This document shows, piece by piece, positions 6,151 through 50,452 of a DNA stretch of 64,000 nucleotides. Source of the DNA: a virus; the IMG/VR virus record IMGVR_UViG_3300028888_000124, positions 2,407 through 66,406 of that record; one strand, given 5' to 3'. Made by a program: the position numbers and the translations under genes. Position 1 is the stretch's first letter. Every line of letters begins with the position of its first letter. The notes beneath the pieces were generated by a model. The model worked only from the letters and a program-made list of their open reading frames with translations, was not told the origin of the DNA and made no database searches.

Positions 6151-7074
6151 ATGCGCCCCATGATTCAGTTCTATGTGCAGTCCATGCGTGTGAAGGGCAG
6201 AAAACCCATGCCCTCCACCGCAGCCCATGTGTCCGAAATGCTGGACCGTGTGTTCAATACCCTGGAAAGCAGCTACGGCGTCGTGATGCGGGATAATAAA
6301 ATCACGGGGCTGAACACCGAAGTTCTCCAGCGCTGGATCAATGACGCTTCGGAAAGCTGGAAGCCCGCCACGTTCAACAACTACATCAGCATTCTCAATC
6401 CCTTTCTCCGCTGGGCGCACAAAATGAAGGGAAGCGATGGCGAATATATCGAGGATGATCTTTCCATCCTCCTGCGCACCCAATCTTTGCCGAACCCGGA
6501 GGATCTGCCGGAAGAAGATCGCCCCAAGAGCAAGTATTATTCCGTGGATCAAGTGGAAAATCTTCTGCATGGCGGCTATGGGCGCAACAATATCCGGGAC
6601 ACAGCCATTGTCGCCATGATTCTTTGGTCCTCCCTTCGTGTGTCGGAGCTGTGCCAGATCACGGTGGGCAATTTCCGCCAAGGCAAAGCGGCGCACACCG
6701 TTCGGGTGCAGCGGAAGGGCAGCGTGGCCATGAAGGATGTTGAAATCGCAGACCCCGCGTATTCCTATGTGGAAGCGTACCTGAAAACCAGAAAGGAGCT
6801 GCGGGACGATCAGCCCTTGTTCATGACCACACATGGGCAGCCCTGCAACAGGACACAGATTTACAAATGCCTGTCATTCAAGCAGAAGCAATTGGGCCTT
6901 GCCACTGGCCCCCACGCTCTGCGCCACACCTCCCTCTCCGCCCAGGAAAAGGAAGCGCCGCTCAGTGTGGTGCGCGATATCGCCAACCACAAGGACTTCC
7001 GTGTCACCAACCGCTACACTCACTCCACCCACGAAGAACGGCTTGCCGCCCTGAACGCGCTGCCGTGGAAGTAA
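6151..7074 (+). CDS. tyrosine site-specific recombinase (XerC/D-like integrase)
   Basis: Catalytic motifs R..., HALRHT (HxxR) and NRYTH with the catalytic Tyr; RBS AAGGAGG. Confidence 0.85.
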   Translation: MRPMIQFYVQSMRVKGRKPMPSTAAHVSEMLDRVFNTLESSYGVVMRDNKITGLNTEVLQRWINDASESWKPATFNNYISILNPFLRWAHKMKGSDGEYIEDDLSILLRTQSLPNPEDLPEEDRPKSKYYSVDQVENLLHGGYGRNNIRDTAIVAMILWSSLRVSELCQITVGNFRQGKAAHTVRVQRKGSVAMKDVEIADPAYSYVEAYLKTRKELRDDQPLFMTTHGQPCNRTQIYKCLSFKQKQLGLATGPHALRHTSLSAQEKEAPLSVVRDIANHKDFRVTNRYTHSTHEERLAALNALPWK

Positions 7075-10437: not shown

Positions 10438-11991
10438 ATGAACTTTTATGATCAGCTTCAAAAGACCATCACCAACAGTGATTCCAATCGTTCTGTAACG
10501 GAAAACGGCGCTGTCGGATTCAAAACCACCGGCAGAAAGCTGCTGGATCTGAACTTTGCCGTGTCCTCTCTTCGCTCCAAGACCGACAGCGAAGTGGAGC
10601 GCATGTTTGCCGACGCTTTGGCGGACGATTTCAACACCGCCATCGTGTGGTTGTTCTTTGCCCGTGATGTGCGCGGCGGACTGGGCGAACGCCGTCTGTT
10701 CCGGGTGGCCATGAAGTATCTCGCCCGGGAATTTCCCGATACGGTGCGGAAGCTGCTGCCTCTGATCGCCGAATACGGGCGGTGGGACGATCTGCTGTGT
10801 CTGATGGGCTCCGACAAGGTAAAGAACGATGTGATTTCCATCGTGAAGGCGCAGCTCACCAGCGATATGGCGAGCATGAAAGCTGGAAAGAGCGTTTCCC
10901 TGCTCGCCAAGTGGATGTATTCGCTCAACACCTCCAGCGAAAACACCCGCAAGAAAGCGGAAATTTTTAGACGTGCCTTGGGCGTCACTCCCCGCCAGTA
11001 CCGCCTGATGCTGTCCAACCTGCGCCGCTACATTGATGTGACAGAACGGAAGATGAGCGCCAACCAGTGGGAGCAGATCAAGTATGAGGCTGTTCCCTCC
11101 CGCGCCAATTTGAATTATAACTCCGCGTTCCTCCGGCACGACGAGGCTCGCCGCCGTGCGTTCCTGGGCAAAGTGGAAAATGGAGAAGCCAAGATCAACG
11201 CTTCCGTGCTCTTCCCCCACGACATCGTGCATAAGTACAAGCAAGGGTCCTATGGTCTTACATTTGCAAACACCTCCGATCAGGCGCTGGAAGCCATGTG
11301 GAAAGCGCTGCCCAATACGGTCAAGGATGGGGAGGGCACCATCGTGGTGGCCGACGGTTCCGGCAGCATGTCTTCTCATGTGGGAAATACGGATGTTTCC
11401 GCCTGGGAAGTTGCGCATGCCCTGGCCATCTACTTTGCGGAACGGTTGCCCGGAGCGTACAAGGATCAGTACATCACCTTCTCCGAGCATCCCCAGTTGG
11501 TAAGGCTGGGCGGCAGCGGCACCTTGCTTGGCAAGATCAAGACCGCCCGTTCTCACAGCGAAGTGGCGAACACCAATATCGAAGCGGTGTTCGAGCTGAT
11601 TCTGGCAACCGCCGTTCAAAACGGCCTGCGTCAGAGCGAATTGCCCAAGAATATCCTGATCATCAGCGACATGGAGTTCGACGCCTGCGCAACTACGAAT
11701 AATGGCTGCAGCCGCTGGGACACTGTTCGCCCCACCAAGACGCTGTTCAATGCTATCGCCCGCCGCTATCACGCTCACGGGTATCAGCTTCCCCGACTGG
11801 TGTTCTGGAATGTGAACAGCCGCACCGGTACTATTCCCGTCAAGGAAAATGACCTGGGGGTGGCGTTGGTGTCCGGTTTCAGCCCCAACGTGGCGAAGAT
11901 GGTGATGTCCGGCAAGCTGGATCCCATGGACGCGCTGCTGGAAACGCTGAACGCGCCTCGGTATAACCCCGTGCGGGAAGCCCTGCGGTAA
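10438..11991 (+). CDS. DUF2828-like protein with a vWA-like MIDAS motif (DGSGSM)
   Basis: 517 aa; N-terminal GAVGFKTTGRKLLDLNF and a central vWA-like motif; RBS GAAAAGGAGAAATCAAT. Confidence 0.55.
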   Translation: MNFYDQLQKTITNSDSNRSVTENGAVGFKTTGRKLLDLNFAVSSLRSKTDSEVERMFADALADDFNTAIVWLFFARDVRGGLGERRLFRVAMKYLAREFPDTVRKLLPLIAEYGRWDDLLCLMGSDKVKNDVISIVKAQLTSDMASMKAGKSVSLLAKWMYSLNTSSENTRKKAEIFRRALGVTPRQYRLMLSNLRRYIDVTERKMSANQWEQIKYEAVPSRANLNYNSAFLRHDEARRRAFLGKVENGEAKINASVLFPHDIVHKYKQGSYGLTFANTSDQALEAMWKALPNTVKDGEGTIVVADGSGSMSSHVGNTDVSAWEVAHALAIYFAERLPGAYKDQYITFSEHPQLVRLGGSGTLLGKIKTARSHSEVANTNIEAVFELILATAVQNGLRQSELPKNILIISDMEFDACATTNNGCSRWDTVRPTKTLFNAIARRYHAHGYQLPRLVFWNVNSRTGTIPVKENDLGVALVSGFSPNVAKMVMSGKLDPMDALLETLNAPRYNPVREALR

Positions 11992-14439: not shown

Positions 14440-14465
14440 CGCTTTGAAAAAGCGCTCGTCTTTTG
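14440..14465 (+). terminator. hairpin cgctttgaaaaagcg plus CTTTTG, immediately followed by the TTTGTTTCCATTAT motif and the GTTTCCA..TGGAAAC palindrome (14462..14485)
   Basis: Read directly from the sequence. Confidence 0.45.
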
Positions 14466-14513: not shown

Positions 14514-15113
14514 ATGGAATTTATGTATGACTGGGAAGATCGTTCCAATAATTCTTGGAGCAAAATCTTTGGTTTCAACGCAAGTCCTGTCTATCAGAAA
14601 ATCATCCAGAAGCCGGATGAAATTGAAATCAAGGTAAGTATGCCCTACGTTCTCCCCCGTGTTGAACAGGTGATTTTCAATGAAGAATCCGCCACCACCG
14701 TGATCATCTGGGCGGACGGCAAAAAGACCATCGTCCATTGTGGCGAGGGTGAAACCTTTGACCGCTACACTGGTTTCATGGCCGCTGTGTGCAAGCGTCT
14801 GTTTGGCGGCACCACGACAGCAAAGAAGCTGATGAACTCTCTGGACAAACAGTATCAGGCCAAGCTCAAAGCCGAAGCAGAAGCGAAGGAGAAAGCCAAG
14901 CGGATGGCCGAGCAGGAAGAAGCCCGGAAGAAGGCCGAAGCCCGCCATGCCAAGGAAAATGATATGCTGCTGGAAGCAATGGTGGAGCATTACCTGCTGG
15001 AAGCGGAAGCCAAGCAGCGTGCCGCTGAGATCCTGGCTGCCCGCGATACCTCCGCGCTGACCGTTCCTTTTGAGGCTGCCGCCGAAGCAGAAGGAGAAAA
15101 AAATGAAAACTAA
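14514..15113 (+). CDS. hypothetical protein with an Ala/Glu/Lys-rich C-terminus
   Basis: ORF track. Confidence 0.5.
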   Translation: MEFMYDWEDRSNNSWSKIFGFNASPVYQKIIQKPDEIEIKVSMPYVLPRVEQVIFNEESATTVIIWADGKKTIVHCGEGETFDRYTGFMAAVCKRLFGGTTTAKKLMNSLDKQYQAKLKAEAEAKEKAKRMAEQEEARKKAEARHAKENDMLLEAMVEHYLLEAEAKQRAAEILAARDTSALTVPFEAAAEAEGEKNEN

Positions 15114-15666
15114 GTTTCTGATTGTCGTAGACATGCAGAATGATTTTGTCACCGGTTCCCTGGGCTCTCAAGAAGCCCAGGGGATCGTTTCCAATGTGGT
15201 AAAGCGGATTGAAAATGCCAGAGAAAACGGCTGGTCTATCTACGCCACGCAGGATACCCATTACGACGATTACCTTGAAACGCAGGAAGGAAAGAAGCTT
15301 CCCGTCCCGCATTGCGTGATCGGAACGGAGGGCTGGGAGCTGGCTCCCGCTGTAGCGGATTGCCTGGAAAAGGAGCCCTTCATGTGCTATGAAAAGAATA
15401 CGTTTGGCAGCGTGAATCTGGCCGAGGATCTTGCCGAGATCATTCACACCGGAGATTTTGACGAGCCTGAATGCGAGATCGAATTGATCGGCCTGTGCAC
15501 GGATATCTGCGTGGTGTCCAACGCTTTGCTTTTGAAAGCCTATCTGCCTGAAGCAAACATTTCCGTCAATGCTTCCTGCTGTGCTGGGGTCACACTGGAA
15601 AAGCACAAGGCCGCACTGGAAGTAATGAGGTCCTGCCACATTAAAGTAATTGAAGGAGAAGAATAA
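15103..15666 (+). CDS. pncA: nicotinamidase / isochorismatase-family cysteine hydrolase (PncA-like)
   Basis: VVDMQNDF, conserved Lys and LCTDICV catalytic Cys motifs. Sits in an operon with nadE, nadD and pncB. Confidence 0.7.
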   Translation: MKTKFLIVVDMQNDFVTGSLGSQEAQGIVSNVVKRIENARENGWSIYATQDTHYDDYLETQEGKKLPVPHCVIGTEGWELAPAVADCLEKEPFMCYEKNTFGSVNLAEDLAEIIHTGDFDEPECEIELIGLCTDICVVSNALLLKAYLPEANISVNASCCAGVTLEKHKAALEVMRSCHIKVIEGEE

Positions 15667-16454
15667 TGTACGATTTTGACCCCGTGGAAACTCGTGATAT
15701 GTTGGTGGCGGGCATCCACCGTATTGCCCGTCAAGGCGGATTTAACAAAGTAGTTATCGGTATTTCTGGCGGAAAGGATTCTACTGTGGCTGCTGCTCTG
15801 TGCGTTCGCGCTCTTGGCAAACAAAATGTGTATGGGGTGCTGTTGCCGGATGGTGTACAAGATGACATTGATGACAGCTATAAAGTTTGTGAAACTCTTG
15901 GCATTCCTTACACAATCATCAATATTGATGAAATGCATGACTCCTTAAAAAATGGAATCATTCTTTCTCTTGACCACAATCACAATATGTCGATTCCATT
16001 TTCCGAAGAAGCTGACATCAACGTGGCTCCCCGCCTTCGTATGACGGTGCTTCGATATATCACGCAAGCATTGGGCGCTCGATTAGCCGGCACTGGAAAT
16101 CTTTCCGAAATGACCGTCGGGTATTGCACAAAAGACGGCGATACCTCCTGCGATTTCTCTGTATTGGGCGGATTAACCAGCATTGAAGTTGTTCAGGTTG
16201 GCTTGACCATGCCTGAGATTCCCCGTGAATTGGTGCTCAAAACGCCCTCCGACGGTTTGTCTGGTATGAGTGATGAAGAAAAGCTGGGTGTTTCCTACGA
16301 GGATATTCATAAGTATATTCGCGGCCTCAAAGGCGTTCCTGAAGATGTGAAGGAAAAGATTTGCAAGCTTCAGGATAGAAGTTCGCACAAGCGCCGTTGG
16401 CCTCCTATTGCTTCTTATACGGTTCACGGGAATAATCTTTGGGAGCCATTTTAA
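15666..16454 (+). CDS. nadE: NH3-dependent NAD+ synthetase
   Basis: PP-loop GISGGKDST; 262 aa. Confidence 0.85.
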   Translation: MYDFDPVETRDMLVAGIHRIARQGGFNKVVIGISGGKDSTVAAALCVRALGKQNVYGVLLPDGVQDDIDDSYKVCETLGIPYTIINIDEMHDSLKNGIILSLDHNHNMSIPFSEEADINVAPRLRMTVLRYITQALGARLAGTGNLSEMTVGYCTKDGDTSCDFSVLGGLTSIEVVQVGLTMPEIPRELVLKTPSDGLSGMSDEEKLGVSYEDIHKYIRGLKGVPEDVKEKICKLQDRSSHKRRWPPIASYTVHGNNLWEPF

Positions 16455-16463
16455 GGAGGCCGT

Positions 16464-17111
16464 ATGAAAAAAGTTTTGGCGTATTGCGGCGCGTTTAATC
16501 CGCCAACAAATGCCCATGTCAATCTTGCGGAATTGGCTTTGAAAGAAACGGGACGGGAACAGGTGGTTTTCGTCCCATCTAAAGCTGAATATATTGTGGA
16601 TGAACAAAAAAAAGAGTATGCGTATGAAGATGCTTTGCGGCTGAATATGCTGGAAGACTTGGCGCTTACTCGCCCATGGATGCATATATGCCGTCATGAT
16701 ATGGAAGGCGAAACACAGCCTCGCACTTACGAAACTTTGTGTTGGCTGAAAGAGCAGGGATATGATCCCGCTTTGCTGATTGGTTCGGATGTGCTTGAAA
16801 GCATGGAAAGAGAATGGAAGAACGCTGATAAGATCGCGCAGGAGTTTGGCATTGTTTGCCTGACAAGAAGTACCCTTCAGTTACCAGATGCCTATCAAGA
16901 TGACGCTTTTCTTGCTCCGCTGCTTCCGCGCATCACTTTTGTCCATTCGCCGGAAGAATATTTGTTGAAGTCATCCACTGGTGCACGCTACCAATATGAT
17001 CAATCCATTCGCTATTGGGAAGGGCTTTGCGATATTGTTCCGCCAGAAGTGGCTGCTTATTTGCTAAAAGATTTTGTGGATATTTTATTAGGAGGTTCTC
17101 ATGAAGCTTGA
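16464..17111 (+). CDS. nadD: nicotinate-nucleotide adenylyltransferase (NadD / NMNAT family)
   Basis: CGAFNPPTNAH nucleotidyltransferase motif; 215 aa. Confidence 0.75.
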   Translation: MKKVLAYCGAFNPPTNAHVNLAELALKETGREQVVFVPSKAEYIVDEQKKEYAYEDALRLNMLEDLALTRPWMHICRHDMEGETQPRTYETLCWLKEQGYDPALLIGSDVLESMEREWKNADKIAQEFGIVCLTRSTLQLPDAYQDDAFLAPLLPRITFVHSPEEYLLKSSTGARYQYDQSIRYWEGLCDIVPPEVAAYLLKDFVDILLGGSHEA

Positions 17112-18318
17112 GCCTATTATTATTTCTTTGCTGGATACTGACCTATATAAATTTAACATGAATCAGGTCATGTTTCATCACCACACGGATTTGTGCGGTA
17201 CTTATGTATTTAAATGCCGAAACAAGGGCGTTCGATTTACACCTGAAATGCTGGATGAGATCAATACACAGATCGATCATTTGTGCACGCTGACATTCCA
17301 GGAAGATGAATTGAATTATCTACGTTCCATCCGTTTTATCAAGCCTGATTATGTTGAGTTTTTGCGCCTGTGGCGTCCCATCCGTGATTATGTGTTTACC
17401 GCTTTGAAGGAGGATACGGGCGAACTGATTGTTCAAGTGAAAGGTCCGCTGTTCTCCGCCATGCAGTTTGAAATCTATCTATTGGAAATCATTAACGAGG
17501 TTTATTTTGCTTTCCAATACAAGGATTATTATGTTGGCATGACAATGGAAGCTGTCAATCGGTTGGATAAAAAGATCGGCGGTTTCATTACCGGACAATA
17601 CACTTTTAAATTTGCCGAATTTGGATGCCGCCGCCGTTGGAACCGAAACTGGGAAGACCGTGTGGTGGAACGCTTTGCCACAGAAACAAATAACATGGTT
17701 GGCACCAGCAACGTGTACCTTGCCAAGAAATATGGACTTACGCCTATTGGCACTTACGCCCATGAATATGTTCAAATGTATCAGGGTATTGACAAAATTC
17801 CTTTGGCATATACCAATTACTATGCGCTAAAGGATTGGTACAATGAATACAAGGGCGATAACGGCACCGCGCTGACCGATACTATCACCACCGATTTGTT
17901 CCTATTGGATTTTGACCGTTCTATGTGCAACAACTTTACCGGCGTTCGTCATGACAGCGGCGATCCCTATGTATGGGGAGAAAAGATCATTGCCCATTAT
18001 CAGAAGTACGGCATCGACCCCAAGACCAAGACGCTGTTATTCTCCGACTCTCTGAATTTCGATAAAGCCCAGGCTTTGTACGATCATTTCAAAGACAGGG
18101 CGCGGGTATCCTTTGGTATCGGCACGTTTGTTTCCAATGATACCGGTGTTGAGCCGCTGAATATTGTGATCAAGCTGCAGGAGGTCAATGGAAAACCTGT
18201 TGCTAAGCTGAGTGATTCCTTGGGCAAAACCATGTGTCAAGACGAAGAATATGTAAAGTATCTTCGCAGCGCGGTGCAATTCAGATTAGATAGAGAAGGA
18301 GCTGGCTATGGAACCTAA
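17101..18318 (+). CDS. pncB: nicotinate phosphoribosyltransferase
   Basis: N-terminal signature LLDTDLYKFNM typical of NAPRTase; 405 aa. Confidence 0.8.
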   Translation: MKLEPIIISLLDTDLYKFNMNQVMFHHHTDLCGTYVFKCRNKGVRFTPEMLDEINTQIDHLCTLTFQEDELNYLRSIRFIKPDYVEFLRLWRPIRDYVFTALKEDTGELIVQVKGPLFSAMQFEIYLLEIINEVYFAFQYKDYYVGMTMEAVNRLDKKIGGFITGQYTFKFAEFGCRRRWNRNWEDRVVERFATETNNMVGTSNVYLAKKYGLTPIGTYAHEYVQMYQGIDKIPLAYTNYYALKDWYNEYKGDNGTALTDTITTDLFLLDFDRSMCNNFTGVRHDSGDPYVWGEKIIAHYQKYGIDPKTKTLLFSDSLNFDKAQALYDHFKDRARVSFGIGTFVSNDTGVEPLNIVIKLQEVNGKPVAKLSDSLGKTMCQDEEYVKYLRSAVQFRLDREGAGYGT

Positions 18319-18676
18319 ATGGCTGTATCGTTTAGAGAGCACCGATCCGTCCATGGGGCTTTGGTATAACGCTAACGGCGAATATGTGTGGACGATTGGT
18401 ACACTGCCGGATTGCCAAACCAGAGATCTTCCCATGGGCTATGATGAACGGTATCGGAAGGACGGGCGTTCCTGGAATTCTTCCTGCTCCAACCCGGAGG
18501 ACTTGGCGCATTGGTTCTCCTTGGATGATGCGCTGACGTTGATGAAAAAGGGTTTCCGGTTTATGAGGTATTTGGCAACGGAATATACGGAATATCCTTT
18601 GGAAACTGTGTTTATTAAAGATACCTGCCTTGCCAGTGAACCTGTAGACCCGCGTACATTATACAAGGAGATATAA
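18308..18676 (+). CDS. hypothetical protein (122 aa)
   Basis: ORF track. Confidence 0.45.
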   Translation: MEPKWLYRLESTDPSMGLWYNANGEYVWTIGTLPDCQTRDLPMGYDERYRKDGRSWNSSCSNPEDLAHWFSLDDALTLMKKGFRFMRYLATEYTEYPLETVFIKDTCLASEPVDPRTLYKEI

Positions 18677-20763: not shown

Positions 20764-21295
20764 TTCGGAAAAGAAATACTACATTGATGGGCCGGTAACC
20801 ATCGAGCTCATAAAGTCTACACCCCAGAAAGCGTTTTCCAATCCATATTACACCGTCGAGCCTATCATGAAACGTGTTACGAGGGCTGAGTTTGAAGCGT
20901 GGATTAAAGCGTATCCTCGTGACCTTGATGTTGATGTATATGGCGCGTGTGATCCACCCGCAGTTTCATATAACGACTTTTCTCTGGCGGATCGTTGGCC
21001 TCACAGCATTGTTGCAAGAACGTATGCCTACGATGAAAAGCCGGGAAGCTATTATTATTTCCCCGAAGAACAGCGCCATTATTACGTGATGGTGAACTAC
21101 GAAGAAGTATTCGCCAGCAAGACAGGATATATGGCTGATCATTCGGGAGGCGATCCATTTATTGTTGGAACGTTGACAATCAGTGTTCCGAGCAATGAGA
21201 AAGGCGAGATTGTTGCAGAGTTTCATGATGTGAAGACTTGTACATTTGACGTGTTTGCGAATTCGCAGGCTGATGGAGGTGAACGAGATGCCTGA
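20756..21295 (+). CDS. hypothetical protein (179 aa)
   Basis: ORF track. Confidence 0.45.
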   Translation: MSDSEKKYYIDGPVTIELIKSTPQKAFSNPYYTVEPIMKRVTRAEFEAWIKAYPRDLDVDVYGACDPPAVSYNDFSLADRWPHSIVARTYAYDEKPGSYYYFPEEQRHYYVMVNYEEVFASKTGYMADHSGGDPFIVGTLTISVPSNEKGEIVAEFHDVKTCTFDVFANSQADGGERDA

Positions 21296-22067
21296 TTCTC
21301 TCGGCGACCGTATGAAGGGCTACGAAAATGTATCCCGTATTTATTTGCCGCGCCGCCTGCCCGTTATCATCCGGGTGGACGGCAGGGCATTTCATACTTT
21401 TACAAAGGGCTTTCAAAGGCCGTTTGATGAGGTGCTTGCCCAAGCAATGCGTGAAACCGCAATCGCGCTGTGCAAGGAAATCAGCGGCGCGAAGCTGGCG
21501 TACACGCAAAGCGATGAGATTTCTATTCTGGTAACCAATAACGACACGTTAGAAACTCAGCCTTGGTTTAATAATAACTTACAAAAATTAGTTTCTTTAT
21601 CTGCGTCTACTGCGACATTGGCTTTTGACAAGGCGTTTTATTGGGCCACAGTAACGTATAAGGGTGACGGACAAATGTTTCAAGTTTATGCAAAGGCATC
21701 CAAAACCGCCACATTTGATTCCCGTGCATTTGTTTTGCCTCCAGACGAAGTTACCAATTATTTTATCTGGCGGCAGCAGGACGCTGTCCGTAATTCTATC
21801 CAGATGGTTGCACAAAGCCTATATTCTCACAAGGAACTGCAAAACAAAAACTGCGATGACCTTCAGGAAATGATATTCCAAAAAGGCATCAACTGGAATC
21901 ATTATGAGCCCTGGAAAAAGCGTGGCATTTGTGTAAGAAAAAACGATATGGCGCTCATTGCGGGTGGTAAAGAAATATTACGTGGCACTTGGGAGCCGGA
22001 TTTCAACACACCTGTTTTTACCCAGGATCGTAACTATATCAACAACTTACTTCCAAAAGGAGATTAA
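21288..22067 (+). CDS. Thg1-like protein (tRNA-His guanylyltransferase family, 3-prime to 5-prime polymerase)
   Basis: IIRVDGRAFHTF and SDEIS motifs; ATG after GGAGGTGAACGAG, in the frame of track ORF 21246..22067. Confidence 0.7.
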   Translation: MPDSLGDRMKGYENVSRIYLPRRLPVIIRVDGRAFHTFTKGFQRPFDEVLAQAMRETAIALCKEISGAKLAYTQSDEISILVTNNDTLETQPWFNNNLQKLVSLSASTATLAFDKAFYWATVTYKGDGQMFQVYAKASKTATFDSRAFVLPPDEVTNYFIWRQQDAVRNSIQMVAQSLYSHKELQNKNCDDLQEMIFQKGINWNHYEPWKKRGICVRKNDMALIAGGKEILRGTWEPDFNTPVFTQDRNYINNLLPKGD

Positions 22068-22070
22068 CGA

Positions 22071-23090
22071 ATGACGCTTGATGAAATCAAAACTTAGGTC
22101 GCTTCACCGACCTACGACTTCCTGCGTACCGATCCCCATTTGCAGGGCCGCATGGCGATGCTGTGTCTTGGCGGTTCTCATGCCTATGGCACGAATACCG
22201 AAACGAGTGATCTGGATCTTCGGGGCTGCGCCTTGAACCGTCCTGAAGAACTGCTTGGCCTTTCCCATTTTGAACAAGTTCGCAACGACGAGCTGGACGT
22301 ATGTATCTATTCCTTCAATAAAATGGTGCCGCTCCTGTATGGCTGCAACCCTAACATCATTGAGATCCTGGGCTGTAAACCGGAGCACTATTTGTTCCTG
22401 TCGGATGTTGGGAAAGAGTTGATCAGCAACCGTCATATGTTCCTGTCTCAGCGGGCATCGTATACGTTTGGGGGCTATGCCTTTTCCCAGCTTCGCCGCC
22501 TGGAGAACGCTATTGCGCGGGACAAACTGCCGCAAGCGCAAAAGGAAGGCCACATCTGCAACAGTATCGAAAAGGTGATCCGTAACTTCAACACGGAAAG
22601 CCGCGCCAAACCCGTTTCCTATATGCTTTTCCTGGCCGATGCCGTACACGATGATCTTGAAAAGGAAACGTTCATCACCACCACATTGGATATGTATCCT
22701 GTTCGTGATCTCAAGGCTTTTGTGAATGACATCAACAATGTGATTAGGGATTATGAAAACGATTTGCACGGGCGCAACAAAAAGAAGGATGACCTCCATC
22801 TGAACAAGCACGCCATGCACCTTGTCCGATTGTATCTGATGGCGATTGATATCCTGGAAAAGGAAGAGATCATCACGTACCGCGAAGCTGACCACGATCT
22901 GCTGATGGATATCCGGCATGGGAAATATCAGCTTGAAGACGGCACGTTCGATTCTGCTTTCTTCGATATGGTCAACGACTTATCCAAGAAAATGGATTAC
23001 GCAAAGGCCAATACCTCCCTTCCCCGTTCGCCCGATATGAGACGCATTGAGGAATTTATGATTGAGGTCAATAAAAAATCAATTGTTTAA
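22071..23090 (+). CDS. nucleotidyltransferase (Pol-beta-like NTase fold, GS..DLDL); in-frame TAG at 22095
   Basis: RBS AAAAGGAG then ATG at 22071, in frame with track ORF 22140; GGSHAYGTNTETSDLDL motif. Confidence 0.65.
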
Positions 23091-24560: not shown

Positions 24561-24570
24561 AAATTCTTGG

Positions 24571-24597
24571 CCCGGTGAAATCCGGGTCTTTTTTTGT
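24571..24597 (+). terminator. Rho-independent terminator (cccgg-tgaaat-ccggg plus T-run), merging into the TTTGTTTCCATTAT motif at 24593..24606
   Basis: Read directly from the sequence. Confidence 0.55.
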
Positions 24598-24650: not shown

Positions 24651-25091
24651 ATGATTTACCGTGAAGAAAAGATGAATCTGTTTTCTGTTCCCCAGGGTTA
24701 TATGCTGGCTCACTGCATCAGCGGTGACTTTGCTTTGGGCGCTGGCGTTGCCAAAGAAATGGACAGGGTATTCAATATGAAGGAGATGCTGAATCTTCTG
24801 TGGGGACCCATCAGCCCGATGAAGGATAAGTGGTCCGCCCCCTGCTGTCTCCCCTGTGCCAACGTGTTTAACCTGGTAACCAAAGAAAAATACTGGCATA
24901 AGCCTACGCTGGCCTCCCTTCGCACTGCGCTGGAAGAAATGTGTTCCCTCGCTGTGGAAATGGGCGTCACCAAAATTGCCATGCCCAAGATCGGCTGCGG
25001 CCTGGATCGCCTGGACTGGGAAAAAGTAAGCCCTATGATCCAGGAGATTTTCGCTGATACGGATATCGAAATTCTGGTGTGCGTATTATGA
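24651..25091 (+). CDS. macrodomain protein (ADP-ribose binding / processing)
   Basis: 146 aa with a macro-domain-like pattern (NLFSVPQGYMLAHCISGDFALGAGVA ... GVTKIAMPKIGCGLDRLDW). Confidence 0.6.
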   Translation: MIYREEKMNLFSVPQGYMLAHCISGDFALGAGVAKEMDRVFNMKEMLNLLWGPISPMKDKWSAPCCLPCANVFNLVTKEKYWHKPTLASLRTALEEMCSLAVEMGVTKIAMPKIGCGLDRLDWEKVSPMIQEIFADTDIEILVCVL

Positions 25092-25321
25092 GTGAAGACA
25101 AGTATGAAGGTTTGACCGTTGATTTCATTGACCGCCCGCTGCCTGAATCGCATCCCGATTTCGTGATGAGGATTAGCTGGTCCTGTCCGGGGCTTGGGTT
25201 TGGCACAGTGGATTTTATCTGGAGAGGCAACGATCTTCACGCTGATACGGAACATATGAGTAAAGCTTTCTTGGAGCGTCTGATGGCATTGGTGCTGCAG
25301 CGTGTGGTCATTGATGGTTGA
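25088..25321 (+). CDS. small hypothetical protein
   Basis: ORF track frame 25079..25321. Confidence 0.35.
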   Translation: MSEDKYEGLTVDFIDRPLPESHPDFVMRISWSCPGLGFGTVDFIWRGNDLHADTEHMSKAFLERLMALVLQRVVIDG

Positions 25322-25333
25322 GAGGAATACAAC

Positions 25334-26548
25334 ATGAAAGAACAAAGCGTTGTTTATCTGGTGAAGGTCGAGCCAGGAGCCAATAATAACAAATACTGGA
25401 AAGCAATGGCTCAAGGCGATCATTTCAACGTTGAGTATGGAAGGGTCGGCGGAACACCGCAGAAGTATTCCTATCCTATTTCCCAATGGAATAAAAAGTA
25501 CAACGAGAAGATAAAAAAAGGTTACGTTGACCGAACGGAATTGGTAGAGGATCTGATTGAAAAAGAAAAGCCCGCTACGCCGGATGGCTATCGTGCTATT
25601 GAAAACAAGGTGATCGCGGATATCGTGTCACGCTTGCAGGCCATGGCAAAGAAAGCGGTCAGCGAAAACTACACCATATCCTCCAGCAAGGTCACCATGG
25701 CAATGGTGTCTGCCGCTCAGGATCAATTAGCAAAGATGGCGGGCATGGCCGCCGCTTCCGTGGAAGAATTCAACCGCGCCTTGATTGAGCTGTTCGGTAT
25801 CATTCCCCGCAAGATGGGCCATGTATCATCCTATATTGCCACCAGCCAAAAGGAGTTTGGCCGTATTCTTGAACGCGAACAGGATCTGCTGGATGTGATG
25901 CGCGGTCAGGTGTATGTGCCGTCCAAGGAAAGCGAAATTGCCCCTCCTCCAAACGGTGAAGCCCACACGATCCTGGAAGAAAAGGGCCTTGTGTTTGAAG
26001 AAGTAACGGACGATGATATCGCCGTGATCAAATCCGCGCTTGGATCCTGTGCCGATAAATTCTGCCGCGCATGGCGAGTTACCAACCTGGCCACACAAAA
26101 ACGCTTTGATGAATATGTGCAGGGCGGCGTGAAGACAAAGCTTCTCTGGCACGGCTCCCGGAATGAAAACTGGTGGAGCATTGTGGGCAGCGGGCTGGTG
26201 TTGCGTCCCACCAATGCGGTCATCACCGGCAAGATGTTTGGCTATGGTATTTACTTTGCCACGAAAGCGCGAAAGTCTCTTGGGTACACCTCTCTTTCCG
26301 GCTCCTATTGGGCGCATGGTTCTTCCCCATCCGCGTTCATGGGGCTGTATGAAGTTGCCTACGGCAAGCCTTACGATGTGCATTCCTTTGATTCCAAATA
26401 TTATTCCCTGAATTATGAAGGGCTGCAGAAGATGTGTCCTGGGGCGAACTGCCTGCACGCGCACGAGGGCCAGATGCTTCGCAATGATGAAATCATTGTG
26501 TATCAGGAATGCCAAACGACAATCAAATATCTGGTGGAGCTCAAATAA
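25334..26548 (+). CDS. WGR-domain plus PARP catalytic-domain protein (H-Y-E triad present)
   Basis: N-terminal WGR-like YLVKVEPGANNNKYWKAMAQG..YGRVG; catalytic LLWHGSRNENWWSIVGSGL, GYGIYFATKA and NDEIIVYQ. Confidence 0.75.
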   Translation: MKEQSVVYLVKVEPGANNNKYWKAMAQGDHFNVEYGRVGGTPQKYSYPISQWNKKYNEKIKKGYVDRTELVEDLIEKEKPATPDGYRAIENKVIADIVSRLQAMAKKAVSENYTISSSKVTMAMVSAAQDQLAKMAGMAAASVEEFNRALIELFGIIPRKMGHVSSYIATSQKEFGRILEREQDLLDVMRGQVYVPSKESEIAPPPNGEAHTILEEKGLVFEEVTDDDIAVIKSALGSCADKFCRAWRVTNLATQKRFDEYVQGGVKTKLLWHGSRNENWWSIVGSGLVLRPTNAVITGKMFGYGIYFATKARKSLGYTSLSGSYWAHGSSPSAFMGLYEVAYGKPYDVHSFDSKYYSLNYEGLQKMCPGANCLHAHEGQMLRNDEIIVYQECQTTIKYLVELK

Positions 26549-26554
26549 TAAAAA

Positions 26555-26575
26555 GCCCGCGTTTTGCGGGCTTCA
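26555..26575. terminator. bidirectional hairpin agcccgc-gttt-tgcgggct
   Basis: Inverted repeat between convergent genes. Confidence 0.5.
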
Positions 26576-30359: not shown

Positions 30360-31451
30360 ATGAGAAAATAGGCGAGCATTAAAACCATTACCAGCATTGC
30401 CCCGATTGAAGGAAAAGATTTGATCGGGCTGGCTGCCGTGGATGGCTGGGGTGTGATCGTGCAGAAGAGTCAGTTCAAGCCAGGCGATAAATGCGTGTAC
30501 GTTGAAATTGATTCCGTCATGCCTGAGAAGCCGGAGTTTGAATTTCTGCGCAAGAGAGATTTTCGCATTCGCACCATGAAGATGGCTGGCGTGATCAGTC
30601 AGGGCATCTGCTTCACGTTGGACATTCTTCCGCCCAAGAAAAACGGAAAAGAATATGCTCTGGACGAAGATGTGACGGAGGTCATCGGTGTTACCCAGTA
30701 CGAGCCTACAATGGATAAGGAACAGAACACCGAGAAAAAAGAACAGACAAAGAAATACCCCAAATGGCTGATGCGGTTTGCCTGGTTCCGGCGATTGGTA
30801 CTGGGGCCTCAAAAGAAAAAGGGCGGCTTCCCATCTTTCATTTCAAAAACAGACGAAGTGCGTATTCAGAATATCCCTCATATTCTGCAGGATAAGCGGG
30901 AATGGATCGCCACTGAAAAGGTGGATGGACAGAGCGGTACGTTTGCGCTGGTTCGCCATAAGCGCCGCATTCCCTTTATGAAGGACAAGTTTGAATACAT
31001 CGTCTGCTCCCGGAACTTGCGTTTGGCAAAGCCGGACAGTTCTTCTTACTGGCGTGTGTCCGAACGGTACAAGATCGAAAACGTTCTTGAGAATATGATT
31101 GGAGATCGTGAGTGGATCGCTATTCAGGGCGAGTGCGTTGCCCCCAACGTGCAGGGCAACAAATACAAAGTTACCGAGCCCGACCTGTATGTGTTCAATT
31201 TGATCTATCCCACCGGAAGGCTGGGAAGCAAGGTCGCCAAGTCAATCATCGAAAACCACGGCATGAAGTTTGTTCCCATCGTGGCTGAGGATTATGTGCT
31301 GCCGGATACCGTACAGGAAGTATTGGATTATGCTCATGGCCAGAGTGTATTGGGTGACACGCTGCGAGAAGGCATTGTTTTTCGCAGTAAAGACGGCGTG
31401 CATTCATTCAAAGCTGTCGATCCATTATTCCTGATCAAATACAACGAATAA
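30360..31451 (+). CDS. ATP-dependent RNA ligase (KxDG nucleotidyltransferase; N-terminal domain of the MRKLASI-type); in-frame TAG at 30369
   Basis: ATG at 30360 after GAAAGGA, in frame with track ORF 30420. N-terminus MRK(TAG)ASIKTI..PIEGKD; EKVDGQSGT motif. Confidence 0.7.
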
Positions 31452-31466: not shown

Positions 31467-32552
31467 ATGTCCAGAAGCTACGAGGAAGATCGTATCAAAC
31501 TGCAAAAGCTGATCAAGAGGATCATCATTGCTGTTGTTTCTCTGATTGCTGCTTTGGTTCTGGTCACCCAGACCATTGGTATTGTGCCTGTCAACCATAC
31601 GGGCGTATGGAAACGAGCTGGGGTTGTGCAGGATGCGGCAGTCAAAGAAGGTTGGCATTTGAAGATTCCTTTTGTGGATTCTATCGAAACCATTTCCAAC
31701 TTGGTGCAGACCACTACTGTTTCCTTTGCTCAGACAAAAGAAACGGCAGAAACCAAGGATCAGCAACTGATTATGGATTACGCTTTTGAAATTCAGCATC
31801 AGTTAGTGCCCGAGCAAAGCTTTGTCGTCTATAAGAATTATGGCAAAAACTATGAGCAAATGCTCATCACCTCTAATGTTCTTCCTGTGATCAAGCAAGC
31901 CTTCGCCAATTATGAAAGCGAGGAAATCACCACGCACAAAGAAGATATTGCGCTGTATATTCAAGGCAAATTGCAGTCATTCACTAAGGAATTCGGTATC
32001 AAAATCCTTCGTGTCAATTTCCAAAGCTATGATTTCACGAAGGAGTACGACGCGATTCTGGAAGAACGCGCCACCCTGAAAGCAAGAGTCACCAATGAAG
32101 AACTGCGCCAGAATCAGGAGCGGGTAGCGGCACAGACCGCCTATGATGTGGCGGTAAAACGCGCCGAGCAAGAAGCCGAAACAGCGAGGATTGCGGCAGA
32201 CAACGCCAAAGAAGTAGCGCTCGTAAAGGCCGAACAGGATAAGCAGACTGCATTGATCCAGGCGAACGCAAAAGCGGAGGCGGCGAAGATCGAGGCTGAC
32301 AACAAAGCATATGTAACTGTTACTTTGGCGGACGCGGATCGTGACGCCCGGCTTGCGGCAGCGGAAGCAACCAAAGCAGAATTGGAAGCGCAGGCCGCAG
32401 GGCTGACCGACCTTGTGATTCAGCGTGAATGGATCAACCGCTGGAATGGTAAGCTGATTCCCAGTTTTGGAACAGGCAGCGGATTGAGTTTTACTAATAT
32501 GACCGATATCATGAAATACTTTTTTGAGGAGACGGTAAAGGATGCAGAATAA
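31467..32552 (+). CDS. SPFH / band-7 domain membrane protein
   Basis: N-terminal TM then GVWKRAGVVQDAAVKEGWHLKIPFVDSI and an Ala/Glu coiled coil. Confidence 0.65.
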   Translation: MSRSYEEDRIKLQKLIKRIIIAVVSLIAALVLVTQTIGIVPVNHTGVWKRAGVVQDAAVKEGWHLKIPFVDSIETISNLVQTTTVSFAQTKETAETKDQQLIMDYAFEIQHQLVPEQSFVVYKNYGKNYEQMLITSNVLPVIKQAFANYESEEITTHKEDIALYIQGKLQSFTKEFGIKILRVNFQSYDFTKEYDAILEERATLKARVTNEELRQNQERVAAQTAYDVAVKRAEQEAETARIAADNAKEVALVKAEQDKQTALIQANAKAEAAKIEADNKAYVTVTLADADRDARLAAAEATKAELEAQAAGLTDLVIQREWINRWNGKLIPSFGTGSGLSFTNMTDIMKYFFEETVKDAE

Positions 32553-32844
32553 ATTCGCCCATATCGGAATGGGCACAGTGGTTCAGGTCAGCCGCATTGT
32601 ATTTATTACTTCCCTTGGCACCACCACAGCTAACCGCTATGTGGAGAACGCGAAGGCAGCCGGGAAGCTACACAATGCCACATTGGGGCATAAATACAGA
32701 AGCCTGATTGTTATGGACGATGGCACTGTACTGATTTCCTGCATTAAACCCATGACGCTGATGAAAAGAATGAACGGTATCATGGGGCTTGAAAACGAAA
32801 CCGAAGAAGACGAGGGCGAGGAAAGCGAGGAACCTGAAGCATGA
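32542..32844 (+). CDS. DUF370 / RemA-like protein
   Basis: HIGMGTVVQVSRIVFITS..GKLHNATLGHKYRSLIVMDDGTVLIS pattern. Confidence 0.45.
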   Translation: MQNKFAHIGMGTVVQVSRIVFITSLGTTTANRYVENAKAAGKLHNATLGHKYRSLIVMDDGTVLISCIKPMTLMKRMNGIMGLENETEEDEGEESEEPEA

Positions 32845-33503: not shown

Positions 33504-33703
33504 TCAAGCTGTATTCCCTGAAAGGCTGCCCCATGTGCAGTCACGCCAAAGAAGTGCTGTCGAAAAAGAATATTCCGTTCGAGCAAATAATGGACGCGGA
33601 TATCATGTCCGCGAAAGGGATCACCCATGTGCCCGTCCTTGAAACAGAAAATGGGAACCTCCTCACTGGGAAAGCTCTTGTCCAATATTTGAATACATTA
33701 TAA
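33500..33703 (+). CDS. nrdH: glutaredoxin-like NrdH redoxin
   Basis: CPMC active site; 67 aa; lies upstream of nrdD. Confidence 0.65.
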   Translation: MIKLYSLKGCPMCSHAKEVLSKKNIPFEQIMDADIMSAKGITHVPVLETENGNLLTGKALVQYLNTL

Positions 33704-33718
33704 AGGAGCTTTAGCTTT

Positions 33719-35611: not shown

Positions 35612-35801
35612 AACAATCAAAAATCCCGATAAAGAATTTCTGAAGCAATTCAAAAAAGAACTGAAGGATAACTCCGGCTACTGCCCTTGCCGCCCCATCA
35701 AAACGCCGGACACAAAATGTCCATGCAAACCTTTCCGGGATACAGGAGAATGCATTTGCGGCCTGTATATCCAGGTTCCCACTTATGATGATGAGGAATA
35801 A
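35601..35801 (+). CDS. small CPC/CxC Cys-rich protein (ferredoxin-thioredoxin-reductase-like motif)
   Basis: CPCRP..CPCKP..CIC pattern. Confidence 0.35.
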   Translation: MKYKTIKNPDKEFLKQFKKELKDNSGYCPCRPIKTPDTKCPCKPFRDTGECICGLYIQVPTYDDEE

Positions 35802-35804
35802 GCG

Positions 35805-49701: not shown

Positions 49702-49865
49702 ACATCACAATTTTAGGAATACTTGACATCCTGATTGGCATAAGCGATTTAGCAATGGCCGTTGTCGATATCATGACAGGCGAATATGTCATGGCGGTCA
49801 TGTTATTCTTGTTCGGAATTTCTGTGCTTTGCTTCGGCATTTATTTTTTGGTGCACGAAAAATGA
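49698..49865 (+). CDS. small two-TM membrane protein (55 aa)
   Basis: ATG overlaps the upstream TGA. Confidence 0.4.
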   Translation: MNITILGILDILIGISDLAMAVVDIMTGEYVMAVMLFLFGISVLCFGIYFLVHEK

Positions 49866-50452
49866 AAATCAAAAATGTGCTTGCCCATCTGAAAAAGATC
49901 ATGACACATCGGCGCTGGGTTCGTTACTACTGCTTCAAAGCTGGGTTATACTGGCAGGGGCTGACGCATGATCTATCCAAATATTCCCCTACTGAGTTCT
50001 GGGAGTCGGTCAAGTATTATCAGGGCACATCATCTCCAATCATCGCATGCAAAAAAGATAAAGGCTATTCCATGGCCTGGTTCCATCACCGTGGCAGAAA
50101 CAAGCACCACTGGGAATACTGGGTAGATGACTTTGATCATGGCATGATCCCAAAGCTGATGCCTGAGCGGTATGCCATCGAAATGTTCTGCGATTTCCTG
50201 GCTGCTGGCCGCGCCTACATGGGCGAAGATTATTCCCGTCAAAAGGAGTACGCCTGGTGGACAGAAAAACGAAAGATCTATGTGATGCACCCTGCTGTCA
50301 GGGATTTCATCGACAGCTGCTTTGCCGGGTACTTAGCCTTCGGCGAACGCTATGCCTTAGATCGTGCACGGCTTCACAGGATCTATCAAACATGCGTAGC
50401 AGGTTATCAAACATGTGCAGAGGAAAACGGGAATGGCAAAAGCAAAACGTAA
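49862..50452 (+). CDS. hypothetical His/Trp-rich protein
   Basis: ATG in the frame of track ORF 49829..50452. Confidence 0.45.
   Translation: MKIKNVLAHLKKIMTHRRWVRYYCFKAGLYWQGLTHDLSKYSPTEFWESVKYYQGTSSPIIACKKDKGYSMAWFHHRGRNKHHWEYWVDDFDHGMIPKLMPERYAIEMFCDFLAAGRAYMGEDYSRQKEYAWWTEKRKIYVMHPAVRDFIDSCFAGYLAFGERYALDRARLHRIYQTCVAGYQTCAEENGNGKSKT

What the first reader, a model, noticed from the sequence alone, without database searches (positions are those of the whole stretch)
15103..18318. Complete four-step Preiss-Handler NAD+ salvage operon in a phage (pncA, nadE, nadD, pncB)
Four adjacent, co-oriented genes encode:
- nicotinamidase (isochorismatase fold, D-K-C triad);
- NH3-dependent NAD synthetase (SGGxDS);
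- NaMN adenylyltransferase;
- nicotinate phosphoribosyltransferase (LLDTDLYKF signature).

Together they convert nicotinamide, the product of NADase-type defences (TIR, SIR2 and SEFIR effectors), back to NAD+. Phage NAD+ reconstitution pathways described so far are two-enzyme routes (NAMPT-like plus NMNAT, or Adps plus Namat). A full deamidated four-enzyme route as a phage cassette would be a distinct solution and a candidate counter-defence module. It sits about 6 kb upstream of a macrodomain-PARP pair.
Basis: partly seen in the sequence, partly recalled or inferred. Interest (0 to 1): 0.85.

Follow-up and report, generated by a model that had tools for sequence, protein, structure and literature searches.

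The report
Phage copy of host nicotinamide-to-NAD+ operon
A large phage from a ruminant gut carries a complete four-enzyme operon that should turn nicotinamide back into NAD+; it was copied from its Clostridia-type hosts without their repressor, but similar gene clusters in gut phages have already been published and the anti-defence role is untested.

Summary
Window 15103-18318 holds four co-oriented, translationally coupled genes: pncA (nicotinamidase), nadE (NH3-dependent NAD synthetase), nadD (NaMN adenylyltransferase-like) and pncB (nicotinate phosphoribosyltransferase). The genes lie inside a phage replication and RNA-repair module.

The interpretation needs three corrections.
- The cassette has the same gene order as a chromosomal nrtR-pncA-nadE-nadD-pncB operon of ruminant-gut Clostridia (PncB 73-76% identical). 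It is most likely a host operon capture. The phage copy lacks the NrtR repressor and its putative operator.
- It is not unprecedented. Li et al. 2024 (Microbiome) described animal-gut jumbo phages with complete Preiss-Handler clusters (pncB-nadD-nadE), phage pncA genes, PARP co-occurrence and the counter-defence hypothesis. GenBank phages Phosso and Phass-1 carry similar clusters, and 18 IMG/VR contigs carry relatives.
- No experiment links this route to NADase defences. Supplying the phage's own PARP is an equally good reading.

New here: PncA plus PncB is the conserved core across the related phage loci. A conserved phage-only 122-aa protein overlaps pncB or is fused to it.

Verdict: new member of a known kind, moderate interest.

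The parts
14514..15113 (+). orf199, a phage ORF of unknown function. Its stop overlaps the pncA start by 11 nt, which leaves no intergenic space for a regulator site.
   Evidence: ORF. (no Pfam or PHROG hit). (ribosome-binding site and overlap). A weak terminator-like hairpin at 14440-14454 precedes it.
15103..15666 (+). pncA: nicotinamidase (nicotinamide -> nicotinate + NH3).
   Evidence: PF00857, E 1e-27. phrog_19305. Best PDB match is P. horikoshii pyrazinamidase/nicotinamidase 1IM5. D10, D51/H53/H70 and C136 align to its D10, D52/H54/H71 and C133. K98 was placed by analogy with the EK-x2-YSAF context of other hits.
15666..16454 (+). nadE: single-domain, NH3-dependent NAD+ synthetase (NaAD + ATP + NH3 -> NAD+).
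   Evidence: PF02540, E 2e-49. TIGR00552 above its cut-off. SGGKDS at residues 34-39. Best PDB hits are NH3-dependent enzymes (2E18, E 1.5e-31).
16464..17111 (+). nadD-like nucleotidyltransferase, predicted NaMN adenylyltransferase (NaMN + ATP -> NaAD).
   Evidence: PF01467, E 2e-15. All the top NCBIfam hits are NadD models, but none reaches its cut-off. Best PDB hit is B. subtilis NadD 1KAM. TNAH and SSTGAR motifs are present. Orthologues are fused to PncB in bacteria (L023, L025, L035; 601-607 aa) and to NadE in phage locus L005.
17101..18318 (+). pncB: nicotinate phosphoribosyltransferase (nicotinate + PRPP + ATP -> NaMN).
   Evidence: PF17767 plus PF04095. NF003704 scores 495 bits and TIGR01514 434 bits, both above their cut-offs. 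Full-length match to PDB 3OS4, E 2e-88, with the AHE histidine conserved.
18308..18676 (+). orf122: a conserved phage-only small protein attached to the cassette. Function unknown; there is a weak hint of an ADP-ribosyltransferase-like fold.
24569..24588 (+). First strong intrinsic-terminator-like site downstream of the cassette. It probably ends the long transcription unit that contains the cassette.
   Evidence: a 7-bp stem with 6 GC pairs followed by TTTTTTT. No comparable + strand site lies between 14454 and 24569.
24651..25091 (+). Macrodomain protein (handles ADP-ribose); context for NAD+ turnover.
   Evidence: PF01661, E 1e-6. A 63% identical homologue lies 5 kb from pncB in phage locus L004.
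25334..26548 (+). PARP1/2-like WGR plus catalytic-domain protein. It is a phage-encoded NAD+ consumer that releases nicotinamide.
   Evidence: PF05406 plus PF00644. Best PDB hits are PARP1 and PARP2, with LLWHGSR and GIYFA aligned. A bidirectional terminator lies at 26553-26573.
49862..50452 (+). DUF5662 protein. It is distant from the cassette here, but its homologues sit next to pncA/pncB in most related phage loci.
   Evidence: PF18907, E 7.5e-36. Homologues lie within about 3.5 kb of pncB in 14 of 19 phage loci and in 0 of 79 bacterial loci.

Best explanation
The region is a functional four-step deamidating salvage operon.

- PncA deamidates nicotinamide to nicotinate.
- PncB converts nicotinate, with PRPP and ATP, to NaMN.
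- NadD adenylates NaMN to NaAD.
- NadE amidates NaAD with free ammonia to give NAD+.

An ancestor of this phage captured the operon as one block from a ruminant-gut Clostridia chromosome. In those chromosomes the same-order operon sits behind the ADP-ribose-responsive repressor NrtR.

The phage copy has neither NrtR nor its putative operator. It is translationally coupled to phage genes on both sides, so it should be made together with the replication genes whatever the host's NAD status.

Its job is to keep the NAD+ pool up in the infected cell by recycling nicotinamide. That nicotinamide may come from host NADase defences or from the phage's own PARP.

Shown here: gene identities, catalytic motifs, operon structure, the likely host origin, loss of the regulator, and recurrence in phage contigs.

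Inferred: enzyme activities, NaMN preference of NadD, timing of expression, and any benefit against defence systems.
For: - **Family and motif evidence** for all four enzymes.
- **Operon structure.** Ribosome-binding sites, overlapping stop and start codons, and no strong terminator until 24569.
- **Phage context.** Primase-helicase, exonuclease, ATP ligase, Thg1, RlaP, a Pol III alpha most similar to Tsamsa-like phages, and a - strand protein shared with Bacteroides phages.
- **Not a misassembly.** The same contig was assembled in JGI and ENA data.
- **Host origin.** Sixteen bacterial loci have all four genes in the same order. NrtR (Nudix plus NrtR_WHD) is directly upstream in 24 of 79 loci. 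Chromosomal DnaE and ABC transporter genes flank the operon, on a contig of 593 kb.
- **Loss of regulation.** A TATGGTCA-N3-TGACCATA palindrome lies upstream of nrtR in 10 bacterial loci. It is absent from window 14-19 kb.
- **Maintained in phages.** Eighteen IMG/VR contigs of up to 299 kb and one phage-like contig binned in a MAG carry relatives. Pfam and jackhmmer place all four activities at six loci: the window, L003, L004, L022, L005 and L109. L005 and L109 keep them in a rearranged order or as fusions, which argues for selection on the whole pathway.
- **Not a recent insertion.** The cassette's base composition matches its neighbours.
Against: - No enzymatic or infection data exist for this route in any phage.
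- NadD scores below every NCBIfam NadD cut-off, and its NaMN versus NMN preference is unknown.
- The likely hosts already own the same pathway, so the phage copy adds dosage and timing rather than a new capability.
- The contig is a fragment. It begins in a tandem repeat and has no terminal overlap, and no capsid or terminase gene was seen in it.
- Most related phage loci keep only pncA and pncB, so the full four-gene set is not universally needed.
- The direction of transfer rests on an unrooted, distance-based tree built only from the 80 bacterial sequences most similar to the query.
Confidence: 0.6

Rival explanations
1. Self-supply rather than counter-defence. The cassette exists to feed and recycle NAD+ for the phage's own NAD+-consuming enzymes (the PARP1/2-like protein working with the macrodomain) and for general metabolism in a host whose gene expression is shut down. 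It has no specific relation to NADase immunity.
For: - A PARP with WGR and catalytic domains, plus a macrodomain, lie 6 kb downstream.
- A macro homologue is also near the cassette in L004.
- Li et al. 2024 found that NAD-synthesis genes co-occur with many NAD+-consuming enzymes in gut jumbo phages.
- The hosts already have the pathway.
Against: - Nicotinamide is also the common product of TIR, SIR2 and related defence NADases.
- Three other phage NAD+ pathways were shown experimentally to counter such systems.
- The two roles are not mutually exclusive.
- Most related phage loci were not checked for a PARP.
Confidence: 0.3
2. Nicotinamide clearance. The conserved PncA-PncB core mainly removes nicotinamide, a product inhibitor of PARP and sirtuin-type enzymes. 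This would keep phage ADP-ribosylation running, as Pnc1 does for Sir2 in yeast (established knowledge). NAD+ resynthesis would be secondary.
For: PncA plus PncB is kept in 13 of 14 distinct phage loci. NadE is kept in 9 and a NadD domain in 5.
Against: - PncA alone would be enough for clearance, yet PncB is always retained.
- At least six loci keep all four steps, even after rearrangement and gene fusion.
- The pattern is equally well explained by reliance on the host's essential NadD and NadE.
Confidence: 0.07
3. Not phage-borne. The four genes are ordinary bacterial chromosomal DNA or passive prophage-flank cargo, or the contig is a chimera.
For: - The genes are 45-76% identical to chromosomal operons.
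- Two integrase genes are in the window.
- No capsid or terminase gene was seen.
Against: - Phage-specific ORFs overlap both ends of the cassette.
- There is no NrtR, DnaE or ABC transporter context like that in the bacterial loci.
- Two assemblies give the same contig.
- Syntenic relatives occur in IMG/VR contigs and in L022, with orf122, DUF5662 and Pol III alpha alongside.
- In the distance tree, PncB groups with the phage sequences, outside the bacterial clade.
Confidence: 0.03

Closest known systems
NrtR-regulated pncA-nadE-nadD-pncB salvage operon of ruminant-gut Clostridia (e.g. loci L025, L058, L093; the related L100 has nrtR-pncA-nadE-pncB without a separate nadD)
   Same: Same four enzymes in the same order. 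Identities are PncB 73-76%, NadE 59-67%, PncA 53-58% and NadD 41-53%.
   Different: The phage copy has no NrtR gene and no NrtR-box-like palindrome. It is flanked and overlapped by phage genes. It has gained orf122 at its 3' end.
Preiss-Handler gene clusters of animal-gut 'NAD-jumbo phages' (Li et al. 2024, Microbiome, PMC11662467)
   Same: Both are phage-borne, physically clustered pncB, nadD and nadE genes from livestock gut metagenomes. Both co-occur with PARP. The same counter-defence hypothesis was proposed.
   Different: The cluster cited there (Kuafu_71) is described without pncA, and that clade is predicted to infect Bacteroidota. The phage here is related to large Firmicutes phages, the cassette starts with pncA, and a host-operon origin can be shown. 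Sequences from that study could not be compared, because its supplements are not held.
NARP2 (Nampt plus Nmnat; Osterman et al. 2024) and the KVP40 NadV/NatV salvage pathway
   Same: Both start from nicotinamide, use PRPP and ATP, and end in NAD+. Both are phage-encoded.
   Different: NARP2 is a two-enzyme amidated route through NMN. The route here has four enzymes and is deamidated, running through nicotinate, NaMN and NaAD. It uses more ATP and needs ammonia. NARP2 has been validated experimentally; this route has not.
NARP1 (Adps plus Namat) and NARP3 (PnuC plus NadR)
   Same: All are phage modules that rebuild NAD+.
   Different: NARP1 re-joins ADP-ribose and nicotinamide through ADPR-PP. 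NARP3 imports nicotinamide riboside. Neither uses a deamidated intermediate, and none of their marker genes is in the cassette.
NAD gene clusters of Sinorhizobium jumbo phage Phosso (PV764938) and gut phage Phass-1 (OQ749652)
   Same: Phosso has NadE, PncB, a Nudix protein, an adenylyltransferase and an isochorismatase-family protein within 6 kb. Phass-1 has a nicotinamidase, a PRPP-synthetase-like protein, an NAPRT-family enzyme and a NadE-like gene.
   Different: The proteins are only 25-46% identical. Gene order differs and extra genes are interspersed. These look like independent assemblies of similar functions.

Membership tests
Nicotinamidase (PncA) within the isochorismatase-like hydrolases | Isochorismatase fold with the Asp-Lys-Cys catalytic triad | tested here: met
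   PF00857, E 1e-27. D10 and C136 align to D10 and C133 of 1IM5. K98 lies in a YEK-NTFGS context like the EK-TRYSAF of other hits.
Nicotinamidase (PncA) within the isochorismatase-like hydrolases | Metal-binding Asp-x-His ... His motif, which separates nicotinamidases from other family members | tested here: met
   D51, H53 and H70 align to D52, H54 and H71 of P. horikoshii PncA.
Nicotinamidase (PncA) within the isochorismatase-like hydrolases | Score above the curated equivalog cut-off | tested here: not met
   NF008623 scores 34 bits against a cut-off of 174. That model is built on the proteobacterial enzyme. Nicotinamide deamidase activity itself is untested.
Nicotinate phosphoribosyltransferase (PncB, type I) | N-terminal and catalytic NAPRTase domains, curated model scores, and the autophosphorylated histidine | tested here: met
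   PF17767 plus PF04095. NF003704 scores 495 bits against 379, and TIGR01514 434 against 270. Full-length alignment to 3OS4 with AHE conserved (H221).
NaMN adenylyltransferase (NadD) | HIGH-type nucleotidyltransferase fold with the (H/T)xxH and SxTxxR motifs | tested here: met
   PF01467, E 2e-15. TNAH at residues 15-18 and SSTGAR at 170-175. Best PDB hit is NadD 1KAM.
NaMN adenylyltransferase (NadD) | Curated NadD model cut-off and preference for NaMN over NMN | tested here: inconclusive
   TIGR00482 scores 92 bits, below its cut-off of 112, and every other NadD model is also below cut-off. Fusion of orthologues to PncB in bacteria argues for NaMN as the substrate, but specificity cannot be read from the sequence.
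NH3-dependent NAD+ synthetase (NadE) | N-type ATP pyrophosphatase domain with the SGGxDS loop and no glutaminase (CN hydrolase) domain | tested here: met
   PF02540, E 2e-49. TIGR00552 is above its cut-off. SGGKDS at residues 34-39. The protein is 262 aa with a single domain. The top PDB hits are NH3-dependent enzymes.
Phage NAD+ reconstitution pathways (NARP) as a functional class of counter-defence | Restores NAD+ and phage replication in cells that express NAD+-depleting defence systems | not testable with these tools
   This needs infection assays and NAD+ measurements. No paper found tests a PncA/PncB route.
Phage NAD+ reconstitution pathways (NARP) as a functional class of counter-defence | Encoded on a phage genome and expressed with phage genes | tested here: met
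   Phage gene context, overlapping ORFs on both sides and no internal terminator. Expression itself was not measured.
NrtR regulon | Adjacent NrtR (Nudix plus winged-helix) gene and its palindromic operator | tested here: not met
   NrtR is present in 24 of 79 bacterial loci but in none of 20 phage loci. The candidate operator is absent from window 14-19 kb.

The most novel reading that the evidence does not exclude
The cassette plus orf122 is a fourth, deamidating phage NAD+ reconstitution pathway. On this reading it is a host NrtR-regulon operon stripped of its repressor, it counters NADase-type immunity (TIR, SIR2 and similar) in gut Clostridia, and the phage-only orf122 (fused to PncB in relatives, possibly with an ADP-ribosyltransferase-like fold) is a new functional fifth component.
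Probability: 0.3. Interest if true: 0.6.

Novelty: new member of a known kind. Interest (0 to 1): 0.4.

Why it matters
NAD+ depletion is a common bacterial anti-phage strategy. Three phage pathways that rebuild NAD+ have been validated, and none uses the deamidated route. This locus is a compact, clonable four-gene (or five-gene) candidate for testing that route.

It also shows one way such modules can arise: a host salvage operon is taken whole and its ADP-ribose-sensing repressor is lost.

The comparison gives a testable prediction. PncA plus PncB should be the minimal useful unit, with the host's NadD and NadE completing the pathway.

The value is limited. The existence of such clusters in gut phages is already published, and the enzymes themselves are textbook.

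Tried and rejected
- **DNA-level search against 50,697 phage records.** It found only two short 71-76% matches, so no close sequenced relative exists.
- **tRNA scan of the window.** None found.
- **Test for a complete or circular genome.** The contig's two ends share no sequence, and one end is a tandem repeat. The contig is therefore a fragment.
- **Function of orf122.**
  - Pfam, even at E up to 1, found nothing meaningful.
  - A profile search of PDB sequences found nothing.
  - Foldseek against PDB found nothing with E below 0.5.
  - BFVD matches only uncharacterised phage proteins.
  - The AlphaFold database library was not available.
  - Three distant homologues are not next to NAD genes, so the link to pncB holds only within this phage lineage.
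- **DUF5662 against PDB sequences.** No hit.
- **Supplementary tables of Li et al. 2024.** Not held, so their Preiss-Handler phages could not be compared directly.
- **Promoter scan.** The number of matches equals the shuffled expectation (22 against 21), so no promoter call was made.
- **Considered and rejected.**
  - A glutamine-dependent NadE: there is no second domain.
  - NadM- or NadR-type NMNAT identity for the nadD-like gene: those models do not appear among the hits.
  - A recent insertion: base composition matches the neighbouring genes.

Full report
**1.

The + strand carries four consecutive ORFs at exactly the stated coordinates.

| Gene | Coordinates | Pfam | E-value |
|---|---|---|---|
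| pncA | 15103-15666 | PF00857 | 1e-27 |
| nadE | 15666-16454 | PF02540 | 2e-49 |
| nadD | 16464-17111 | PF01467 | 2e-15 |
| pncB | 17101-18318 | PF17767 + PF04095 | 1e-29 / 9e-66 |

Curated NCBIfam models give a mixed picture:
- PncB clears its cut-offs: 495 bits against 379, and 434 against 270.
- NadE clears its cut-off: TIGR00552, 165 bits against 64.
- NadD hits only NadD models, but all fall below cut-off (best 92 bits against 112).
- PncA matches the proteobacterial equivalog only weakly.

Alignment to solved structures shows that the active sites are intact.
- PncA has D10, K98 and C136, plus the nicotinamidase-specific metal ligands D51, H53 and H70. These align with P. horikoshii PncA.
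- NadE has SGGKDS and a single domain. Its best matches are NH3-dependent enzymes.
- NadD has TNAH and SSTGAR, and B. subtilis NadD is its best match.
- PncB aligns end to end with 3OS4 at E 2e-88 and keeps the AHE histidine.

**2. Operon anatomy**

Each gene is preceded by a GGAG-type ribosome-binding site. Successive genes overlap by 11, 1, 11 and 11 nt, or are 9 nt apart. The overlaps include an unknown phage ORF upstream (14514-15113) and a 122-aa ORF downstream (18308-18676).

The first strong + strand terminator after 14454 is at 24569-24588, behind ClpP. The macro-orf77-PARP unit is bracketed by that terminator and a bidirectional one at 26553-26573. The promoter scan was uninformative, because the number of matches equalled the shuffled expectation.

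GC and GC3 of the cassette fall within the range of neighbouring genes.

**3. The setting is a phage**

The surrounding genes are a phage replication, nucleotide and RNA-repair module:
- AAA_24 protein, SSB, and a TROVE/Ro-like protein
- primase-helicase and a PD-(D/E)XK exonuclease
- ATP-dependent DNA ligase and Pol III alpha
- a Thg1-like enzyme, RlaP and two RNA ligases
- PhoH and ClpP
- ThyX, NrdD, dUTPase and FolD
- YopX
- two tyrosine recombinases

Other evidence points the same way.
- Pol III alpha is most similar (39%) to those of 160-170 kb Tsamsa-like Bacillus siphophages.
- A large - strand protein has homologues in cultured Bacteroides phages.
- The window is 64 kb of a 69.95 kb contig that was assembled identically in JGI and ENA data.
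- The contig starts in a tandem repeat and has no terminal overlap, so it is a fragment of a larger genome.
- No capsid or terminase gene was seen in it.

**4. Where the cassette came from**

A scan of one genome per bacterial species returned more than 575 relatives. The best 80 are almost all ruminant-gut Clostridia MAGs (Ruminococcus, Christensenellales, Oscillospiraceae), plus the isolate R. flavefaciens Y1. PncB is 72-76% identical across 79 of the 80; the exception is L022 (82%), the phage-like contig binned in a MAG.

Of the 79 bacterial loci (all but L022):
- 16 have pncA, nadE, nadD and pncB in the same order as the window
- 3 have nadD fused to pncB
- 11 have pncA-nadE-pncB
- 17 have only pncA-pncB
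- 24 have an NrtR gene (Nudix plus NrtR winged-helix domain) directly alongside

In L025 and L100 (the latter on a 593 kb contig) the operon is flanked by ABC-transporter genes and the chromosomal DnaE.

A palindrome, TATGGTCA-N3-TGACCATA, lies just upstream of nrtR in 10 of these loci. It is a plausible NrtR operator. It is absent from the cassette region of the window. The other phage loci have only one 3-mismatch hit, downstream of pncB in L003, which is probably chance.

The phage cassette therefore most likely began as a whole-operon copy of a host regulon. It has lost the regulator, and no intergenic space is left upstream for one.

**5. Recurrence in phages**

IMG/VR holds 18 contigs of up to 299 kb with PncB 63-79% identical to the window's. 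None has NrtR. These contigs, the phage-like contig binned in a MAG (L022) and the window make 14 distinct loci.

| Feature | Distinct loci (of 14) |
|---|---|
| PncA + PncB | 13 |
| NadE | 9 |
| NadD domain | 5 |

- L003, L004 and L022 share the window's gene order.
- L005 has pncA, a PncB-orf122 fusion and a NadD-NadE fusion.
- L109, a further contig found later, has pncA, a PncB-orf122 fusion, nadD and nadE.
- So six loci, counting the window and L109, carry all four activities.

In a neighbour-joining tree the window groups with L022, L003, L004 and L005. This group lies outside the clade that holds all the bacterial sequences. The tree is distance-based, midpoint-rooted and sampled only from the top bacterial hits, so the direction and number of transfers are not settled.

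A DUF5662 gene sits next to pncB in 14 of 19 phage loci and in none of the bacterial loci. In the window it lies 32 kb away.

**6. A phage-specific extra gene**

orf122 (phrog_23161) overlaps the pncB stop codon. Among the related loci it is next to pncB or fused to it in several, and it is absent from all bacterial loci.

Its 124 homologues are unnamed proteins on contigs of up to 376 kb, and 27 columns of the alignment are invariant. Three distant homologues are not near NAD genes.

**7. What is already known**

- Osterman et al. 2024 defined NARP1 and NARP2 and do not mention PncA, PncB, NadD or NadE.
- NARP3 is PnuC plus NadR.
- The surveys by Iyer et al. list only NadV, NadM and NadR.
  - 174 of 668 livestock-gut jumbo phages have complete salvage or Preiss-Handler pathways.
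  - One cluster contains pncB, nadD and nadE.
  - Phage pncA genes are mentioned.
  - PARP co-occurs with the NAD-synthesis genes.
  - Countering NAD+ depletion is proposed as a function.
- The GenBank phages Phosso and Phass-1 also carry comparable clusters.
- I found no paper that tests a phage nicotinamidase route against a defence system.

**8. Mechanism and rivals**

The biochemical route is nicotinamide -> nicotinate -> NaMN -> NaAD -> NAD+. It uses PRPP, ATP and ammonia. The route is well supported by sequence.

The biological role is inferred. Nicotinamide is produced both by defence NADases and by the phage's own PARP1/2-like enzyme. Counter-defence and self-supply are therefore both plausible and not exclusive.

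The gradient PncA/PncB > NadE > NadD across phage loci fits a model in which committing nicotinamide to NaMN is the key phage contribution, and the host's essential NadD and NadE can finish the job. Pure nicotinamide clearance is a weaker alternative. A bacterial or chimeric origin of the contig is nearly excluded.

**9. Verdict**

The locus is a new member of a known kind. Its useful new details are the likely host-operon origin, the loss of NrtR, the PncA-PncB core, and orf122. Interest is moderate, and the case for a counter-defence role rests entirely on experiments that have not been done.

Noticed in passing
[not shown]
   Followed up: yes
window 49862-50452; L007, L008, L009, L012, L016, L019, L020, L022: A DUF5662 protein (with HDxSK and HHxxxNKHH motifs) lies next to pncA/pncB in 14 of 19 related phage loci and in no bacterial locus. 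In several loci it occupies the slot where nadD sits in the four-gene version. Its function is unknown.
   Followed up: partly
window 24651-26548: A macrodomain, a 77-80 aa ORF and a PARP1/2-like protein (WGR, helical region, catalytic domain with the His and Tyr motifs) form their own unit between two strong terminators.
   Followed up: partly
window 10438-11991, 21246-23090, 30420-31451, 44636-45628: There is a dense RNA-repair gene set: a TROVE/Ro-like DUF2828 protein, a Thg1-like tRNA-His guanylyltransferase, the RlaP nucleotidyltransferase and two RNA ligases (one T4 Rnl1-like). This suggests defence against tRNA- or RNA-cleaving host systems.
   Followed up: no
L023, L025, L035 (bacterial); L005 and L109 (phage): Gene fusions occur within the pathway. 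NadD is fused to PncB (601-607 aa) in Clostridia MAGs. NadD is fused to NadE (415 aa) and PncB to orf122 (523-524 aa) in phage contigs.
   Followed up: partly
L025 5292, L100 5889, L093 5005, L058 5120 and six other bacterial loci: A conserved palindrome, TATGGTCA-N3-TGACCATA, lies about 0-45 nt upstream of nrtR in most of these loci. In L060, L070 and L098 it falls just inside my ORF call, whose start codon is uncertain. It is a candidate NrtR operator for this Clostridia group.
   Followed up: partly
window 6151-7074 and 52026-53210: Two tyrosine recombinase/integrase genes lie in one phage fragment. The strand of the coding genes switches near 54 kb, just after the second one.
   Followed up: no
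window 54500-64000 (- strand); L103: The - strand block encodes large proteins with LRR_5/DUF6273 and faint CotH hits, and a 1024-aa protein shared with Bacteroides phages. A short ORF nearby has a weak reverse-transcriptase (RVT_1) hit. This may be a receptor-binding region with a diversity-generating element.
   Followed up: no
L104 1-150 (contig end, about 2.4 kb before the window start): The source contig begins in a GC-rich tandem repeat (CACCGGGCACCGCAACACCGGGGACGGCAA...). This probably broke the assembly.
   Followed up: partly
window 31467-43400: There is a nucleotide-metabolism block: ThyX, glutaredoxin, NrdD, dUTPase, FolD, a Band_7 protein and a RemA-like protein. The anaerobic ribonucleotide reductase fits a strictly anaerobic host.
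   Followed up: no
L108 (Phage Phass-1 OQ749652, 96.8-101.3 kb): A human-gut phage that uses genetic code 15 has a run of genes for a nicotinamidase, a PRPP-synthetase-like protein, an NAPRT/NAMPT-family enzyme, a hypothetical protein and a NadE-like protein. This is another possible deamidating salvage module.
   Followed up: no
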